Origin: Leucoraja ocellata
Lineage: Eukaryota
DNA: 64,000 bases
Assembly (NCBI GenBank): GCA_036785375.1
Contig: JAWMAR010000094.1
Coordinates: 3,224,001 to 3,288,000 of the forward strand
Direction of reading: 5' to 3'
Position numbers: made by a program. Of the stretch, positions 40,601 to 61,600 are shown one piece after another (position 1 is the first letter of the stretch; every line of letters begins with the position of its first letter).

Positions 40601-43600
40601 GGCGAGAAGGCACTTGTACATGTTCCAAGGACACATCAGCAGCTGCATCCTGCCTGGAGTGCTCTTCCCTGGGCTCAGTACGGCTTCTTCTGCAGGGGAG
40701 ACAAAGGAAACGTGACTGGAAAACCCACGCCATGGACCGGAACCCCCCGCCTCGCCCGCCACGGATCGAGGGCCCATGGAACCCACCTGGAGGGCCGGCG
40801 AGCAGACTGGCTGCGGGAGGGATTGCACGGCCTAGACGGGGGAGTGGCCGCTGGAGGGCCTGCAGAAGCCTGGGGCTCGGCTGGACCGGGCGCCGCTCCA
40901 AGAAGCCGAGCACGTGGACCGCACACGGCCAACAGCGGTGGAGCAGCGGACGGAGGTCACCACGGCTACGCTTGGCCAGGCCGACACTGCAATGTTGCCA
41001 GGGCAACGGGTCTTCGTGGTCTCGACACAAGCCTGTCTCAGAAATCTACGGACAATTCCTTCGTCTTCATGTTCAAGAAGGAACTGCAGATGCTGGAAAA
41101 TCGAAGGTACACAAAAATGCTGGAGAAACTCAGCGGGTGCAGCAGCATCTATGGAGCGAAGGAGAAAGGTGACGTCACCTATTTCCTTCGCTCCATAGAT
41201 GCTGCCGCACCCGCTGAGTTTCTCCAGCATTTTTGTGTACCTTCGTCTTCATGGCTTGGTTTATGCTCTGACATGCACTGTCAACAGTGGGATCTTATAT
41301 AGACGGGTGTGTGCATTTCCAAATCATGTCCAATCAATTTAATTTACCACTGGTGGACTCCAATCAAGTTGTAGAAACATCTCAAGGATAATCAATGGGA
41401 ACAGGATGAACCGAAGCTCAATTTTGAGTGTCATAGCAAAGGGTCTGAATACTTACGTAAATGTGATATTTCAGTTATTTCTTTTTAATTACTTTGCAAA
41501 AATTTATAAACACCTGTTTTCACTTCTTCATTCTGAGGTATTGTGTGTAGATTGATGATAAAAAAAAACCAAATTTAATCAATTTTAAAATAAGGCTGTA
41601 ACGTAGCAAAATGTAGAAAAAGTGAAGTGGTCTGAATACTTTCTGAATGCACTGTACCTTTAGAAAGGAGATGAGGAGGAATTTCTTTGGTAGATGGTGG
41701 TCAATCTGTGGTTTTCATTGCCACAGACAGCTGTGGAGGCCAAGTCATTGGATATTTATAGTAGTACGGGTGTGAGGAGTTATAGGGAGAGGCCAAGAGA
41801 ATGGAGTTGAGAGGGAAAGAAAGATCAGCCATGATTGAATGGGGGAGTAGACTAGATTGGTCAAATGGCCTACTACTGCTCCAGTGACTTAGGAACATAT
41901 CATGTTTTGTACTGTTTTCCTGCATGAATAAATGTAATATTGAAACAATATTTTTCTTACCTTGTTTTTGTCCATAACTGCAAAGCAAAGAATACAGCAT
42001 CATTACAACATGTCAGCACCACCACATCACTGATACATCAGCATTGCTAGCGTTGTTCAAAACACTTTTTCAAACTTGATAAACTACAGGGCAAAATTCA
42101 CACGGCTATGTGCACAAACGCTTTCCTTGCTCTCCACTGAAGCTACAGGAATGGAAACACATTGGCTATGAATAGTTTAGTTTAGTTTAGATTAGAGATA
42201 CAGCGTGGAAACAGGCCCTTCGGCCCATCGACCAGCGATCCCCGCACCCTCACACTATCCTCTTCACTAGGCACAATTTACAATCTGCACCGAAGCCAAT
42301 TAACCAACAAACCTGTACGTCTTGGAGTGTGGGAGGAAACCGGAGCACCCGGAGAAAACCCACGCGGGCACAGGGAGGACGTACAAACTCCGTACAGCAG
42401 GCACCCGTTGGGGAATTACAGACCAGTTAGTCTAACATCGGTAGTGGGGAAACTGCTAGTCAGTTATTAAAGATGGGATAGCAGCACATTTGGAAAGTGG
42501 TGAAATCATTGGACAAAGTCAGCATGGATTTACGAAAGGTAAATCATGTCTGACGAATCTTATAGAATTTTTCGAGGATGTAACTAGTAGCGTGGATAGG
42601 GGAGAACCAGTGGATGTGGTGTATCTGGACTTCCAGAAGGCTTTCGACAAGGTCCCACATAAGAGATTAGTATACAAACTTAAAGCACAAGACATTGGGG
42701 GTTCAGTATTGATGTGGATAGAAAACTGGCTGGCAAACAGGAAGCAAAGAGTAGGAGTAAACGGGTCCTTTTCACAATGGCAGGCAGTGACTAGTGGGGT
42801 ACCGCAAGGCTCAGTGCTGGGACCCCAGCTATTTACAATATATATTAATGATCTGGATGAGGGAATTGAAGGCAATATCTCCAAGTTTGCGGATGACACT
42901 AAGCTGGGGGGCAGTGTTAGCTGTGAGGAGGATGCTAGGAGACTGCAAGGTGACTTGGATAGGCTGGGTGAGTGGGCAAATGTTTGGCAGATGCAGTATA
43001 ATGTGGATAAATGTGAGGTTATCCATTTTGGTGGCAAAAACGGGAAAGCAGACTATTATCTAAATGGTGGCCGATTGGGAAAGGGGGAGATGCAGCGAGA
43101 CCTGGGTGTCATGGTACACCAGTCATTGAAGGTAGGCATGCAGGTGCAGCAGGCAGTAAAGAAAGCGAATGGTATGTTAGCTTTCATTGCAAAAGGATTT
43201 GAGTATAGGAGCAGGGAGTTTCTACTGCAGTTGTACAGGGTCTTGGTGAGACCACACCTGGAGTGTTGCGTACAGTTTTGATCTCCAAATCTGAGGAAGG
43301 ACATTATTGCCATAGAGGGAGTGCAGAGACGGTTCACCAGACTGATTCCTGGGATGTCAGGACTGTCTTATGAGGAAAGACTGGATAGACTTGGTTTATA
43401 CTCTCTAGAATTTAGGAGATTGAGAGGGGATCTTATAGAAACGTACAAAATTCTTAAGGGGTTGGACAAGCTAGATGCAGGAAGATTGTTCCCGATGTTA
43501 GGGAAGTCCAGGACAAGGGGTCACAGCTTAAGGATAAGGGGGAAATCCTTTAAAACCGAGATGAGAAGAACTTTTTTCACACAGAGAGTGGTGAATCTCT

Positions 43601-58600: not shown

Positions 58601-61600
58601 CTGCGGAGAAAAAGAATAGGTGGCGTTTCGGGTCGGGACCCTTCTTCAGACAACCTGAAAGGATTAAACCCCTGTCCCACAGTACGAGTTCACTCCAAGA
58701 GCTCTCCCGAGTTTGCCCCGATTCGAACTCGGAGATTTACGGTAATGGCCACTCGTCGGTACTCGGGGCTCTCGTGGACAGTTTTCATCACGTTGAAAAA
58801 TCTTCACGAGTCTTCCCGTGCTTACCTGCCGTTAGCGAGTCTTCCCGAGTACCTGCCGTTAGCGTTACGAGCCGCTAAGTGACGTCCCCGAGCTCTGACG
58901 TACCCGCTACGTTCATTCTCCGTGCTTACCACGAGTTTGATTTTTTTTTAAACTCGGGAGAGCTCTTGGAATGAACTCGTACCGTGGGACAGGGCTATTA
59001 GGAGATGTGTGGGGCTCTTTGTTTTACACAGAGAGTGATCCCTTCTTCTTCTTTCGTGTGGCGTGCACAGCCTAAAGTTGTTGGACAACTTGTTCTATTT
59101 GATCTTCCGTTTGTGCACGTCGAGTTGATTGCATTAGTCGAAACAGGGCGGACCACGTGAGGGTTGCAATCTTCCACCCCACAGAGGGTGGTGAGCAAAG
59201 ATTATAGAGCTCCTCTAGTATCTTTGGTGGTGAGTGCCTGGAACTTGCTGCCGGGGGTGTGGTGGAGGCAGATAGGATAGTGGCGTTTAAGAGATTTTTG
59301 GATGGGCACATGATATGGATCACGTGCAGGCAGATAAGAGTTGTTCTTGGCATCATATTGGGCACAGACATTGTGGGCTGAAGGGCCTGTTCCTGTGCTG
59401 TACTGTTGTATGCTGTATGGTCCCAAAGAAGCAACACACGCCCCTGCTTTAGGATATTGTTGCTGCCTGCGCCTGAGGTTGAATTTATAACGACTAAACT
59501 GGATATTCGGTTTGCTGGAGGTCCAATGGGAATGGTGGGTGTGGGGAGGAACTGCAGATGCTGCTTTAAGCCGAAGGTAGACACAAAATACTGGTGTAAC
59601 TCAGCGGGACAGGCAGCGTCTCTGGAGAGAAGGAATGGGTGACGGGGTCCAGTGCCTTCTTCAGACACGGGTTCAATGTAACACTAAGCCAGCGCGGTGC
59701 GAATCGGCTGACAGCGCAGGGTGGTCTTACCAGCGACGAGAATGTAAAGGAGCAGAGCGAACATGCCGAGGGGTAGACGTGGAGCGGGGTCGATGTAGAG
59801 CGGGGTTGATGTCACCCCAAGGCTAGTCATTTCACTTTCGATTTCTCGAGTCCTACGCGGTAGCTTCCGGGGTATTCCAGCATCTAATGTAAGGTAGATT
59901 GGTTTCGAGATTGTTACTGTGCAGGCAGGGGCAGGACAAGGGCGGGTAGTGTGGGCGGAGAGGGAGGAGAGAGGGGTGAGGGGTGGAAAGGAGAAGGGGG
60001 AGGGAGGGTTGGACAGGGTGGGGGTGGAGAGGGGAATGGGAGGGAGGGTTGGAGGGGGGGGTTGGAGAACGGGGGGGGGGGGGAGGAGAGCGGATGGTAT
60101 GGGGAGGGGAAGGGGGTGGTGGAGGAGAGGAGGGATTGCCAGAGGTGATGGCATTAACAGTCTGGAGGCTGGTGGCCTGGAGTCTGTCTGTGGGGTCATG
60201 GTCAATGTGTAGGTTTGAGGAGGTGTGGCAATCAAACTCGATGGGATTGTGCGGAGGGAGAATTGTCATGGGTGTCATGTCATGATCAATGAACGGTGGA
60301 CCAGGATCGAAGGGCCAAATGGCTTCTCCCCAGCCCCTTAGAGTTGCTTCCTTACAGCGCCAGAGACCCGGGTTCGATCCTGACTACGGGTGCTGGCTGT
60401 ACGGAGTTTGTACATTCTCCCTGTGACCTGCGTGGGTTTTCTCTGGGTGCTCCGGTTCCCCCCCACACTCCAAAGACGTACAGGTTTTTGTAGGTTAATT
60501 GGCTTGATAGCAATGTAAATTATCCCTAGTGTGCAGGATAGTGTTAGTGTGCGGAGAGTCGCTGGTCGGCGCGGACTCTGTGGCCCAAAGGGCCTGTTTC
60601 CATGCTATATGTCTAAACTAGACTAAGCTATTTCTTGGGGTGGGAGATTGCAACCTTCACGTGGTCCGCCCGGTTTCGACGAATGCAAACAACCTGGCGT
60701 GCACAATCAAATAAGATCAAATAGAACAAGTTGTCCTACAACTTTAGGCTGTGCATGCCATACCCAAGAAGAGAAGCTCTTTCTTATATTAATTTCTATT
60801 TCCAGAATATACTTTATTCATAGAAAATATGAACAGGAAATGCAAGGGGGGGGGGGGGGGGGGAATATATATTTTTTCACTTTTTGCATCTTTCATTCAT
60901 TTGTACCATATCCATATTTAAAAGACTAGAATCACTTAGCCCATGCTTACGTGCTGATTTCCACATTATGATGAGCTATGGTGATATGGCTATGCTGTGA
61001 AATATCATTAGATTGTTCCAATGATAGAGTTCCTCTGTCCGCCCGTGTGCAAACTTGCCTAATCTCTCTTGCCTAGTCGCCTATGTGATACACATCCTAA
61101 AAATTAATGGCCATATTTGTGTCCAGCACTGATGCAACTTGATATCACAAGGAAAGGACAGTATCTCTAAAAAAAAAGATGCAGAGTGCTGGAGTAGCTC
61201 AGCAGGTCGGGCAGCATCTCGGGAGAACATGGATAGACAACGTTTGGGTCGAGACCCTTCCTCAGACTCGGGGCTGATGAAGGATCCCGTCCCAAAACTT
61301 TCATACGTTATATGAGCAGTTAGACCATTTGGCTCATCAAGTCTATCCCGCCATTCAATCGTGGCTGATCTATCTTTCCCTCTCAACCCCATTCTCCTGC
61401 CTTCTCCACATAATCTTTGATGCCCTTACTAATCAATTCCCTGTTAATCTCTGCTTTGAAAATACCCAATGATGGCCTCCACTGTCTGTGGCAATGAATT
61501 CCACAGATTGAACACCTTCTGGCTAAGAAATCCTTCCTCATCTCCTTTCTACAAGTACGTCCTTTTACAGAGGTTATGCCCCCTGGTCCTAGACTGTCCC

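What the first reader, a model, noticed from the sequence alone, without database searches (positions are those of the whole stretch)
40675..59764. Complete tapasin-family gene with a feature mix unlike either mammalian tapasin or TAPBPR
Seen: eight phase-compatible exons give a 431-aa type I membrane protein. It keeps the Cys7/Cys71-equivalents, two Cys in the IgV domain, the D-W-R-x-Q-H MHC-I contact motif and the GNAS sequon. It has no Cys after CEISRY (no Cys95-equivalent) and no lysine in the TM helix, yet ends KKPY. Known: tapasin uses Cys95 for ERp57, a TM Lys for TAP and KKxx for ER retrieval; human TAPBPR lacks KKxx. Inference: this belongs to the poorly characterised third 'tapasin-like' lineage of non-mammalian vertebrates. 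It may be an ER-retained, TAP- and ERp57-independent MHC-I chaperone or peptide editor.
Basis: partly seen in the sequence, partly recalled or inferred. Interest (0 to 1): 0.7.

Follow-up and report, generated by a model that had tools for sequence, protein, structure and literature searches.

The report
Ray copy of third tapasin-like gene
This is an intact ray or skate copy of TAPBPL, the little-studied third relative of the MHC class I loading chaperones tapasin and TAPBPR; the gene lineage is already described, so it is a sound but fairly ordinary find.

Summary
On the minus strand, eight exons with seven GT..AG introns give a 431-codon type I membrane protein. A transcript-derived database protein, P0001, matches 380 of 385 in-frame residues and crosses junctions 2/3 to 7/8, including the ...KKPY end.

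In a 52-protein tree the family splits into TAPBP, TAPBPR and a third clan (SH-aLRT 100, 99, 100). Window exons 3, 4 and 5, placed separately, each fall among rays inside the third clan. Forcing the cartilaginous-fish rows to TAPBPR or TAPBP is rejected (p-AU 8.65e-6; 0.00167). The Pristis orthologue models confidently and matches tapasin and TAPBPR over about 400 columns.

The novelty is small. Grimholt 2018 (PMC5824609) already named this lineage TAPBPL and described the same feature mix. NCBI already names orthologues in sharks, rays and a chimaera. What I add is that the lineage predates the split of cartilaginous and bony fish, that the conserved C-terminus is K-P-Y (23 of 28 rows), and that an ISRE-like element lies upstream of the ATG.

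ER retention and independence from TAP and ERp57 remain inferences. I never joined the exons; full-length work used database proteins.

The parts
59731..59764 (-). Exon 1: ATG and signal-peptide core (MFALLLYILVA, plus the first base of a Gly codon)
   Evidence: Donor is GTAAGA. Orthologues start at the equivalent position. No transcript covers this exon here.
58264..58443 (-). Exon 2: end of the signal peptide and the first strands of the N-domain. It holds the Cys7-equivalent (KLECTF) and the 22-residue loop at the place of the TAPBPR scoop loop
   Evidence: P0001 covers its last 30 codons, 29 of 30 identical. No Pfam family and no PDB sequence hit.
56738..57028 (-). Exon 3: rest of the N-terminal barrel. 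It holds the Cys71-equivalent (LECEISRY), has no second Cys, and carries an acidic, probably disordered loop
   Evidence: 95 of 96 residues identical to P0001. The exon tree places it among rays in the third clan (95*).
48350..48688 (-). Exon 4: IgV-like domain with VDWRYQH (the E185/R187/Q189/H190 columns of tapasin), the GNAS sequon and two Cys
   Evidence: Pfam V-set 8.3e-12. 112 of 112 identical to P0001. Exon tree 97*. Feature columns.
46545..46871 (-). Exon 5: IgC1 domain
   Evidence: Pfam C1-set 1.8e-11. 106 of 108 identical to P0001. Exon tree 100*.
44301..44393 (-). Exon 6: transmembrane helix. It has no Lys or Arg within the helix, one Cys, and His-Leu-Asn-Lys at the cytosolic end
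   Evidence: 29 of 30 identical to P0001.
41961..41977 (-). Exon 7: 17-nt cytoplasmic micro-exon, (V)MDKNK
   Evidence: Pattern search gave 1 match against 0.01 expected. AG/GT flanks. Matches the P0001 tail.
40675..40689 (-). Exon 8, coding part: KKPY and the stop codon. The 3' UTR continues to lower coordinates and its end is not defined
   Evidence: The K-P-Y end is present in 23 of 28 third-clan rows.
59830..59845 (-). ISRE/IRF-E-like element GAAATCGAAAGTGAAA, 66-81 nt upstream of the ATG
   Evidence: The only match to GAAANNGAAANNGAAA in the 64-kb window, against 0.01 expected. Sequence. Its function is inferred only.

Best explanation
The locus is the intact, transcribed orthologue, in a ray or skate, of TAPBPL in the sense of Grimholt 2018. 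TAPBPL is the third paralogue of the tapasin family, beside TAPBP and TAPBPR. It should not be confused with the HGNC symbol TAPBPL, which means TAPBPR.

What is shown:
- The gene structure.
- Transcript support for junctions 2/3 to 7/8.
- Clade membership.
- A tapasin/TAPBPR-type fold for a 74%-identical orthologue.

What is inferred:
- The protein is a type I ER-membrane glycoprotein.
- Its N/IgV domain binds MHC class I, or a class I-like molecule, through the conserved D-W-R-x-Q-H surface and a scoop-loop-like 22-residue loop.
- It acts as a chaperone or peptide editor.
- It is returned to the ER by COPI through the C-terminal K(-3)/K(-4) of ...KKKPY.
- It probably works outside a TAP-anchored, ERp57-conjugated loading complex.
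- Its transcription is probably interferon-responsive, through the ISRE-like element.
For: Gene model and transcript.

Family. A search with exon 3 alone found 5 proteins at E <= 0.01 among 121 candidates. Four are named tapasin-like or tapasin-related-like, from Pristis, Narcine, Mobula and Rhinoraja. The fifth is P0001, an unnamed transcript-derived protein.

Tree of 52 database proteins. There are three clans: TAPBP with 7 rows (100*), TAPBPR with 16 rows (99*) and a third clan with 29 rows (100*). The third clan follows the species tree: cartilaginous fish, then coelacanth and lungfish, then ray-finned fish.

Anchors. The TAPBP clan is anchored by PDB tapasin hits of 2.1e-55 and 1.2e-52. 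The TAPBPR clan is anchored by the named human, armadillo and platypus proteins.

Placement of the window. Exons 3, 4 and 5 each sit in a starred set with Pristis, Mobula and Hemitrygon (95*, 97*, 100*).

AU tests. Cartilaginous-fish rows held with TAPBPR: lnL lower by 52.2, p 8.65e-6. Held with TAPBP: lnL lower by 53.1, p 0.00167.

Two paralogues in one species. Mustelus has P0012 and P0186, S. torazame has P0010 and P0036, and Protopterus has P0019 and P0037. P0010 was left out of the tree; the other five rows fall in the third and TAPBPR clans as stated.

Fold. The P0002 model has pLDDT 88.2 and pTM 0.78. Its best PDB matches are tapasin (9rcv_B, 9.9e-26, 429 columns; also 3f8u) and TAPBPR (5opi, 5wer, 7rno). 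B7-H6 aligns over only about 220 columns.

Contact residues. The TN6 mutant (E185K, R187E, Q189S, Q261S) cuts tapasin activity to 8% (PMC4709564, passage). The window has D, R, Q and H at those four columns. All 8 elasmobranch rows keep the first three.

Sequon. It is kept in the window and in 17 of 28 third-clan rows.

C-terminus. 23 of 28 third-clan rows end in KPY, and 22 of those 23 fit KKxx or KxKxx. The same motifs fit 2 of 16 TAPBPR rows and 4 of 7 TAPBP rows. COPI recognition needs the free carboxylate and the -3 Lys (PMC3521961, passages).

Interferon. The salmon TAPBPL genes rise after IFN-gamma stimulation (PMC7573153, passages).
Against: - No function of any TAPBPL protein has been tested (PMC7573153: 'unknown functions').
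- By sequence alone the IgV and IgC exons score better against CD276 and B7-H6 than against TAPBPR. PDB tapasin is not among the 60 rows listed for either exon.
- Exons 2 and 3 have no PDB sequence hit below E 0.15. Family membership of the N-domain therefore rests on orthologues and a predicted fold.
- The fourth TN6 column is His, not Gln, in the window.
- Pro at -2 in KKPY is untested for COPI binding. The paper I read contains no occurrence of 'proline'.
- The strict conservation of P-Y is more than a dilysine signal needs, so the tail may serve another purpose.
- Lack of Cys95 and of a TM Lys is also common in TAPBP-clan rows, so it does not show independence from ERp57 or TAP.
- The tree method was 'quick' (SH-aLRT only), and the AU groups were named after the tree was seen.
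Confidence: 0.72

Rival explanations
1. It is the cartilaginous-fish orthologue of TAPBPR, as the NCBI names 'tapasin-related protein-like' suggest, and it merely evolves fast.
For: Automatic names of the orthologues. By sequence, TAPBPR is the closest solved family member to the Pristis orthologue (1.5e-23, against 1e-8 for tapasin).
Against: Sharks have a separate gene inside the TAPBPR clan (P0036, P0185, P0186), together with human TAPBPR. Holding the cartilaginous-fish rows with TAPBPR is rejected (p-AU 8.65e-6). All three exon trees keep the third clan on one side of a branch (98*, 95*, 98*).
Confidence: 0.03
2. It is, or stands in for, the tapasin of cartilaginous fish. On this view it is the PLC-bound loader, and the third-clan placement reflects either loss of TAPBP proper in these fish or a long-branch artefact.
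For: It carries a KKxx-type end like tapasin and keeps the first three TN6 residues and the sequon. None of the named proteins I retrieved from cartilaginous fish falls in the TAPBP clan. The 2023 paper on the cartilaginous-fish MHC uses the word tapasin only for 'tapbpl'.
Against: Orthology to TAPBP is rejected (p-AU 0.00167). My searches were seeded from the third lineage and capped, so a missing shark TAPBP is weak evidence. A 2025 paper lists an accession as 'Heoc TAPBP' for a shark (PMC12227049), which I could not inspect. There is no TM Lys or Arg.
Confidence: 0.1
3. It is a cell-surface B7/NCR3LG1-like V-C ligand with an added N-terminal domain, not an ER chaperone.
For: The best PDB sequence hits of the IgV and IgC exons include CD276, VTCN1 and B7-H6. 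A 2026 survey clusters NCR3LG1 with TAPBP/TAPBPL (PMC13262535).
Against: The B7 proteins align to the V-C half only, about 220 columns. Tapasin and TAPBPR align over about 370-440 columns, N-domain included. A short tail with a dilysine-type end argues for ER retrieval. The tapasin TN6 residues are kept.
Confidence: 0.05
4. The invariant K-P-Y-COOH is not, or not only, a COPI signal. It would be a lineage-specific sorting or docking motif, and the protein would work beyond the ER, as TAPBPR does.
For: KPY is kept in 23 of 28 rows, although the x positions of KKxx are free in the canonical signal. One KPY row (REKPY) has no dilysine.
Against: 22 of 23 KPY rows do satisfy KKxx or KxKxx. The -3 Lys plus a free carboxylate are the key COPI determinants.
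Confidence: 0.1

Closest known systems
TAPBPL (TAPBP-like) sensu Grimholt 2018, BMC Evol Biol 18:25 (PMC5824609)
   Same: It is a third clan beside TAPBP and TAPBPR. It has no TM lysine, an ER-retention-type end, the N233 sequon and many class I contact residues, and it lacks C95 (passages). The 'unique cysteine 11 residues downstream of C95' that she describes is present in 9 of 28 rows of my third clan, at exactly +11. None of the nine is a cartilaginous fish; those that carry a name are ray-finned fish.
   Different: Her set had no cartilaginous fish. The window and all 9 cartilaginous-fish rows lack that extra Cys; they have Val there and the window has Met. I could not see her alignment because supplements are closed. 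The equation of my third clan with her TAPBPL therefore rests on topology, features and taxon range.
TAPBPR (human gene symbol TAPBPL)
   Same: It has the same domain order and fold (5opi, 5wer). The E/D-W-R-x-Q-H motif is shared. The loop after the first Cys is of similar length, 20 against 22 residues, with a hydrophobic residue at the column of human L30. That is a loop alignment and is uncertain.
   Different: It is a separate clan. Human TAPBPR ends ...VSQPS with a long tail and no dilysine, whereas this protein has a roughly 12-residue tail ending KKKPY.
Tapasin (TAPBP)
   Same: The fold is shared (9rcv, 3f8u, 7qng). So are the Cys7/Cys71 pair, three of the four TN6 residues, the sequon and a KKxx-type end.
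   Different: It is a separate clan. There is no Cys at the C95 column, no charged residue in the TM helix, and no 'SGPSLED' stretch before the TM segment.
B7-H6 (NCR3LG1) and CD276
   Same: They share an IgV-IgC pair with significant sequence and fold similarity.
   Different: They lack the roughly 155-residue N-terminal barrel. They are surface ligands.

Membership tests
Tapasin family (TAPBP/TAPBPR/TAPBPL) | N-terminal barrel fused to an IgV-like domain, then IgC1, one TM helix and a short tail | tested here: met
   Exon order and Pfam V-set and C1-set hits. The model of orthologue P0002 (pLDDT 88.2) matches tapasin and TAPBPR chains over 371-441 columns at E 1e-26 to 1e-20. This was tested on the orthologue, not on a joined window model.
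Tapasin family (TAPBP/TAPBPR/TAPBPL) | Conserved cysteines: the N-domain pair, the IgV pair and the IgC pair | tested here: met
   The invariant or near-invariant Cys columns of alignments A1 and A2 are all Cys in the window exons.
Tapasin family (TAPBP/TAPBPR/TAPBPL) | Binds MHC class I heavy chain/beta2-microglobulin and assists peptide loading | not testable with these tools
Only residue conservation is available: D, R and Q at the E185, R187 and Q189 columns.
TAPBPL, the third lineage (Grimholt 2018) | Falls in the clan that excludes TAPBP and TAPBPR | tested here: met
TAPBPL, the third lineage (Grimholt 2018) | Direct clustering with the published TAPBPL reference sequences (zebrafish, medaka, salmon, frog, turtle, kiwi, opossum) | not tested
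   Those accessions could not be fetched. One salmonid row (P0189) and several other teleosts are in the clan.
TAPBPL, the third lineage (Grimholt 2018) | C-terminus ...K-P-Y-COOH. This is my own census, not a published criterion | tested here: met
   The window ends KKPY. 23 of 28 clan rows end KPY, against 0 of 23 rows of the other two clans.
TAPBP (tapasin proper) | Orthology to the tapasin clan | tested here: not met
   topology; AU p 0.00167.
TAPBP (tapasin proper) | Cys95 for the ERp57 disulfide and a Lys in the TM helix for TAP (mammalian features) | tested here: not met
   The window has Pro at the C95 column and no Lys or Arg in the helix. Only 2 of 7 TAPBP-clan rows have that Cys, so the feature does not define the clan.
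TAPBPR | Orthology to the TAPBPR clan | tested here: not met
   AU p 8.65e-6. Sharks have a separate TAPBPR-clan gene.
COPI dilysine cargo | Lys at -3 plus Lys at -4 or -5, a free C-terminus, on a type I membrane protein tail | tested here: met
   ...N-K-K-K-P-Y-stop. The rule is from PMC3521961. Actual COPI binding and ER residence were not tested.

The most novel reading that the evidence does not exclude
Cartilaginous fish may keep TAPBPL in something like its ancestral working state. That state would be an ER-resident class I editor, interferon-inducible and independent of the loading complex. Its signs here are an intact D/E-W-R-x-Q contact triad and a hydrophobic residue at the scoop-loop lever column. 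The invariant K-P-Y-COOH would be a lineage-specific retrieval or docking signal, tighter than a generic KKxx. The six unnamed representatives that branch beside lungfish have lost the triad (0 of 6). This hints that the function shifted or decayed on the way to its loss in placental mammals. If so, rays and sharks would be the best place to learn what this third chaperone does.
Probability: 0.25. Interest if true: 0.6.

Novelty: new member of a known kind. Interest (0 to 1): 0.35.

Why it matters
Tapasin and TAPBPR are the only two known MHC class I peptide editors. A third paralogue has been kept from chimaeras to marsupials and lost in placental mammals, and no function has been tested for it. 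This locus shows that the three-way split predates the divergence of cartilaginous and bony fish, which fits an origin in the early vertebrate genome duplications. It also gives a clean gene model, with an intact contact motif and a strictly conserved K-P-Y end, that could be expressed and tested. It does not change the picture already drawn in 2018.

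Tried and rejected
- Sequence searches of exons 2 and 3 against PDB found nothing useful: 0 hits, and chance-level antibody hits at E >= 0.15. Pfam has no family for exons 2, 3 or 6.
I anchored the clans through PDB hits and through named hits.
- The ESM Atlas call gave taxa only to phylum level (Chordata), so it could not tell tetrapods from fish. I left the second call unused.
- The third homologue search was swamped by mammalian TAPBPR and returned no protein named plain tapasin, so the TAPBP clan consists of unnamed representatives only.
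- I did not use nine unnamed (lgn or ena) hits inside the mammalian TAPBPR cluster, because they might be human.
- A scan for neighbouring genes looked at 329 stop-to-stop ORFs of 70 aa or more, 152 of them unique. With six ORFs sent to Pfam, it found only two reverse-transcriptase fragments. Synteny could not be assessed.
- No complex prediction was sent, because no class I sequence was available.
- Whether cartilaginous fish have a TAPBP-clan gene stayed unchecked.
- The reading 'pseudogene' was rejected: the frame is open, the splice sites are canonical, and a transcript-derived protein matches.

Full report
WHAT IS THERE

The window is vertebrate DNA, rich in LINE and SINE debris, with three N runs that I left alone.

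I fixed the borders from the sequence. The exons are:
- exon 1: 59764-59731
- exon 2: 58443-58264
- exon 3: 57028-56738
- exon 4: 48688-48350
- exon 5: 46871-46545
- exon 6: 44393-44301
- exon 7: 41977-41961
- exon 8: 40689-40675, including the stop

The seven introns all begin GT and end AG behind pyrimidine tracts. Six are phase 1 and the last is phase 0. The coding length is 1296 nt, or 431 codons. The 17-nt exon 7 could not be found by eye. A degenerate pattern taken from an orthologue's tail matched once in the window, against 0.01 expected.

Every search with window sequence was done exon by exon. Full-length analyses used database proteins returned by the tools.

IS IT EXPRESSED AS MODELLED?

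A search with exon 3 alone, looking among longer proteins, returned 5 proteins at E <= 0.01 among 121 candidates.
- The first, P0001, is a 390-aa, 5'-partial protein from an unnamed transcript assembly.
- It is identical to the window's in-frame exon translations at 380 of 385 aligned residues.
- The split codons at the five junctions it spans (ex2/3 to ex6/7) read G, V, E, A and V, as in P0001.
- The phase-0 ex7/ex8 junction falls inside its ...LNKVMDKNKKKPY end.
- The ex1/ex2 split codon (G) lies outside P0001.

This is transcript-level support for junctions 2/3 to 7/8 and for the C-terminus, from the same or a very close species. Exon 1 and the start codon rest on the orthologues' starts only. 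An in-frame ATG lies 22 codons upstream. tblastn finds no second copy in the window.

DOMAINS

- Exon 4 is a V-set Ig domain (8.3e-12) and exon 5 a C1-set domain (1.8e-11).
- Exons 2, 3 and 6 have no Pfam family.
- Against PDB sequences, exon 4 hits CD276 (4.4e-14), VTCN1 (6.7e-8) and TAPBPR (1.3e-6).
- Exon 5 hits shark UrIg2, B7-H6 and TAPBPR (2.3e-8).
- Exon 3 gives only chance-level antibody hits, and exon 2 gives none.

By sequence alone, then, the Ig half is no closer to tapasin than to B7 proteins. The family call needs orthologues and fold.

FOLD

The orthologues are the four named rays and skates, then sharks, a chimaera, coelacanth, lungfish, bichir, sturgeon and teleosts (40 proteins).

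I modelled the Pristis protein P0002, which is 74% identical to P0001, with a 44-row alignment. The model has mean pLDDT 88.2 and pTM 0.78. Its only very low stretch is 144-151, in the acidic loop.

Foldseek against the PDB puts tapasin and TAPBPR first:
- tapasin: 9rcv_B at 9.9e-26 over 429 columns, then 3f8u, 7qng and 6eny
- TAPBPR: 7rno, 5opi and 5wer, at 7e-25 to 6e-23

B7-H6 follows at 1e-18 over only about 220 columns. The N-terminal 155 residues therefore belong to a tapasin-type N-domain.

WHICH PARALOGUE?

An exhaustive HMMER search with P0002 gave 1244 proteins at E <= 0.001. I took those that align into the N-domain. A profile search added named TAPBPR proteins, including the human reference (104 proteins at E <= 1e-40).

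The tree of 52 proteins used IQ-TREE with LG+C20 PMSF, the 'quick' setting and SH-aLRT support. It has three clans:
- 7 rows (100*), whose members hit PDB tapasin at 2.1e-55 and 1.2e-52
- 16 rows (99*), with human, armadillo, platypus, toad, lungfish, teleost and three shark TAPBPR-type proteins
- 29 rows (100*), holding P0001, all other cartilaginous-fish orthologues, coelacanth, lungfish, bichir, sturgeon and teleosts

Several further results agree with this.
- Mustelus, S. torazame and Protopterus each have one gene of the third type and one of the TAPBPR type. The S. torazame third-type protein, P0010, was left out of the tree.
- The window's own exons 3, 4 and 5, added as separate fragments and analysed on their own columns, each join Pristis, Mobula and Hemitrygon (95*, 97*, 100*). 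The third clan stays on one side of a branch (98*, 95*, 98*).
- Forcing the ten cartilaginous-fish rows together with TAPBPR costs 52.2 lnL (p-AU 8.65e-6). Forcing them with TAPBP costs 53.1 lnL (p-AU 0.00167).

Caveats on the tree:
- The AU groups were chosen after I had seen the tree.
- 22 rows are unnamed 50%-cluster representatives.
- Rows left out on purpose were Narcine P0003 (aberrant ends), Rhinoraja P0005 (partial), several near-duplicates including P0010, and the unnamed hits in the mammalian TAPBPR cluster.

WHAT IS KNOWN

Grimholt 2018 (PMC5824609; passages read) named exactly such a third lineage TAPBPL. She found it in salmon, zebrafish, medaka, gar, frog, turtle, birds and opossum, and found it lost in placentals. 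She listed these features:
- no TM lysine
- an ER-retention signal in some members
- the N233 sequon kept in some
- human C95 not conserved outside human TAPBP
- a unique Cys 11 residues further on

My third clan shows that Cys at exactly +11 in 9 of 28 rows. None of the nine is a cartilaginous fish; the named ones are ray-finned fish. Kaufman's review repeats the three-member picture (PMC9586880). Salmon TAPBPL genes respond to IFN-gamma, and their function is stated to be unknown (PMC7573153).

Grimholt's paper has no cartilaginous fish. The 2023 paper on the cartilaginous-fish MHC uses 'tapbpl' for the tapasin-related protein. Searches for TAPBPL with shark (6 papers), tapasin with elasmobranch (5) and tapasin with elephant shark (4) showed no description of the third lineage in these fish, in the passages I read. 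I could not see supplements, and Grimholt's alignment (Text S4) may bear on the equation of the two clans.

FEATURES

- The window has Cys at both N-domain columns.
- It has Pro at the C95 column. Cys is there in 0 of 28 third-clan rows, 1 of 16 TAPBPR rows and 2 of 7 TAPBP rows.
- It has Met at the +11 column.
- It has D, R, Q and H at the E185, R187, Q189 and H190 columns. TN6 and TN7 mutations at these sites reduce tapasin activity to 8% and 53% (PMC4709564).
- It has His rather than Gln at the Q261 column.
- It has N-A-S at the sequon.
- The first-three triad is kept in 16 of 28 third-clan rows. That includes all 8 elasmobranch rows, but none of the 6 unnamed representatives that branch beside lungfish.
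- The loop after the first Cys has 22 residues, against 20 in human TAPBPR. It has Leu at the column of the TAPBPR leucine lever. All 9 cartilaginous-fish rows, and the window, have L, I, V or F there. This is a loop alignment and only a lead.
- The tail: 23 of 28 third-clan rows end K-P-Y, and 22 of these fit KKxx or KxKxx. The other 5 end differently and may be isoforms or truncations.
- COPI needs the free carboxylate and a -3 Lys, with a further Lys at -4 or -5 (PMC3521961).

PROMOTER

GAAATCGAAAGTGAAA lies 66-81 nt upstream of the ATG, on the gene's strand. It is the only match to a triple-GAAA pattern in the window, against 0.01 expected. The looser pattern GAAANNGAAASY has 4 matches against 0.67 expected. 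That this is an ISRE is my reading of a consensus recalled from memory, and it was not tested.

MECHANISM

The most likely reading is a type I ER glycoprotein that holds peptide-receptive class I, or a non-classical class I, through the tapasin-type N/IgV surface. It would be retrieved by COPI and be interferon-inducible. The absence of a mid-helix charge and of the Cys95-type thiol argues mildly for action outside a TAP-anchored, ERp57-linked complex. Many TAPBP-clan rows lack these features too, so this step is the weakest. I put orthology at about 0.9 and the mechanism at about 0.5.

VERDICT

The gene model is real, complete and well read, and the lineage assignment is correct. It is a new member of a known kind. 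Its value lies in extending TAPBPL to cartilaginous fish and in the K-P-Y observation.

Noticed in passing
window 11546-12511, 14689-14940, 15219-15442: Three N runs, 1442 N in all. Between the last two lies an open, Ser-rich frame on the + strand that may be an exon of another gene. I left it alone: I did not fill the N runs or search the stretch between them.
   Followed up: no
window 20299-20761: A tandem array of a 108-nt unit, 4.3 copies, 94% matches, followed by (ATA)21 at 20921-20983. It is open in several frames, so it is probably a minisatellite rather than coding sequence.
   Followed up: partly
window 42460-43281 (+) in intron 6; 3626-4312 (-): Reverse-transcriptase fragments (Pfam RVT_1, 8.5e-26 and 2.3e-14). 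Related C-terminal ORFs recur at 8911-9492, 43282-43725, 46113-46520 and 55164-55724. They are LINE debris inside and around the gene.
   Followed up: partly
window 59860-60260 (-), just upstream of the ISRE-like element: A long C/T-rich (Pro-codon-like) low-complexity tract with a 40-nt imperfect repeat at 59974-60068. Its meaning is unknown.
   Followed up: no
window 44301-44393 (TM exon): A single Cys in the TM helix (LFFCTIV) is shared by 7 of the 8 elasmobranch orthologue rows. The exception is Heptranchias. Callorhinchus lacks it at the corresponding position, although its TM segment has a Cys further toward the N-terminus. I read this from the C-terminal strings. It could be a palmitoylation or pairing site, or chance.
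   Followed up: no
P0045, P0047, P0051, P0052, P0043, P0041 (unnamed third-clan representatives beside Protopterus): All six have lost the E/D-R-Q contact triad. Four of them (P0045, P0047, P0051, P0052) keep the K-P-Y end. This suggests a changed ligand or a decaying function in that branch. Their species could not be learned.
   Followed up: partly
P0001 against window exons: There are five amino-acid differences in 385 residues: T/M, S/L, K/R, R/G and T/I. They may be allelic or between close species, and this was not resolved. The source of P0001 was not sought.
   Followed up: no
window 37540-37620: A (TG/CA)n microsatellite, seen as Cys-Val and His-Thr repeat frames.
   Followed up: no
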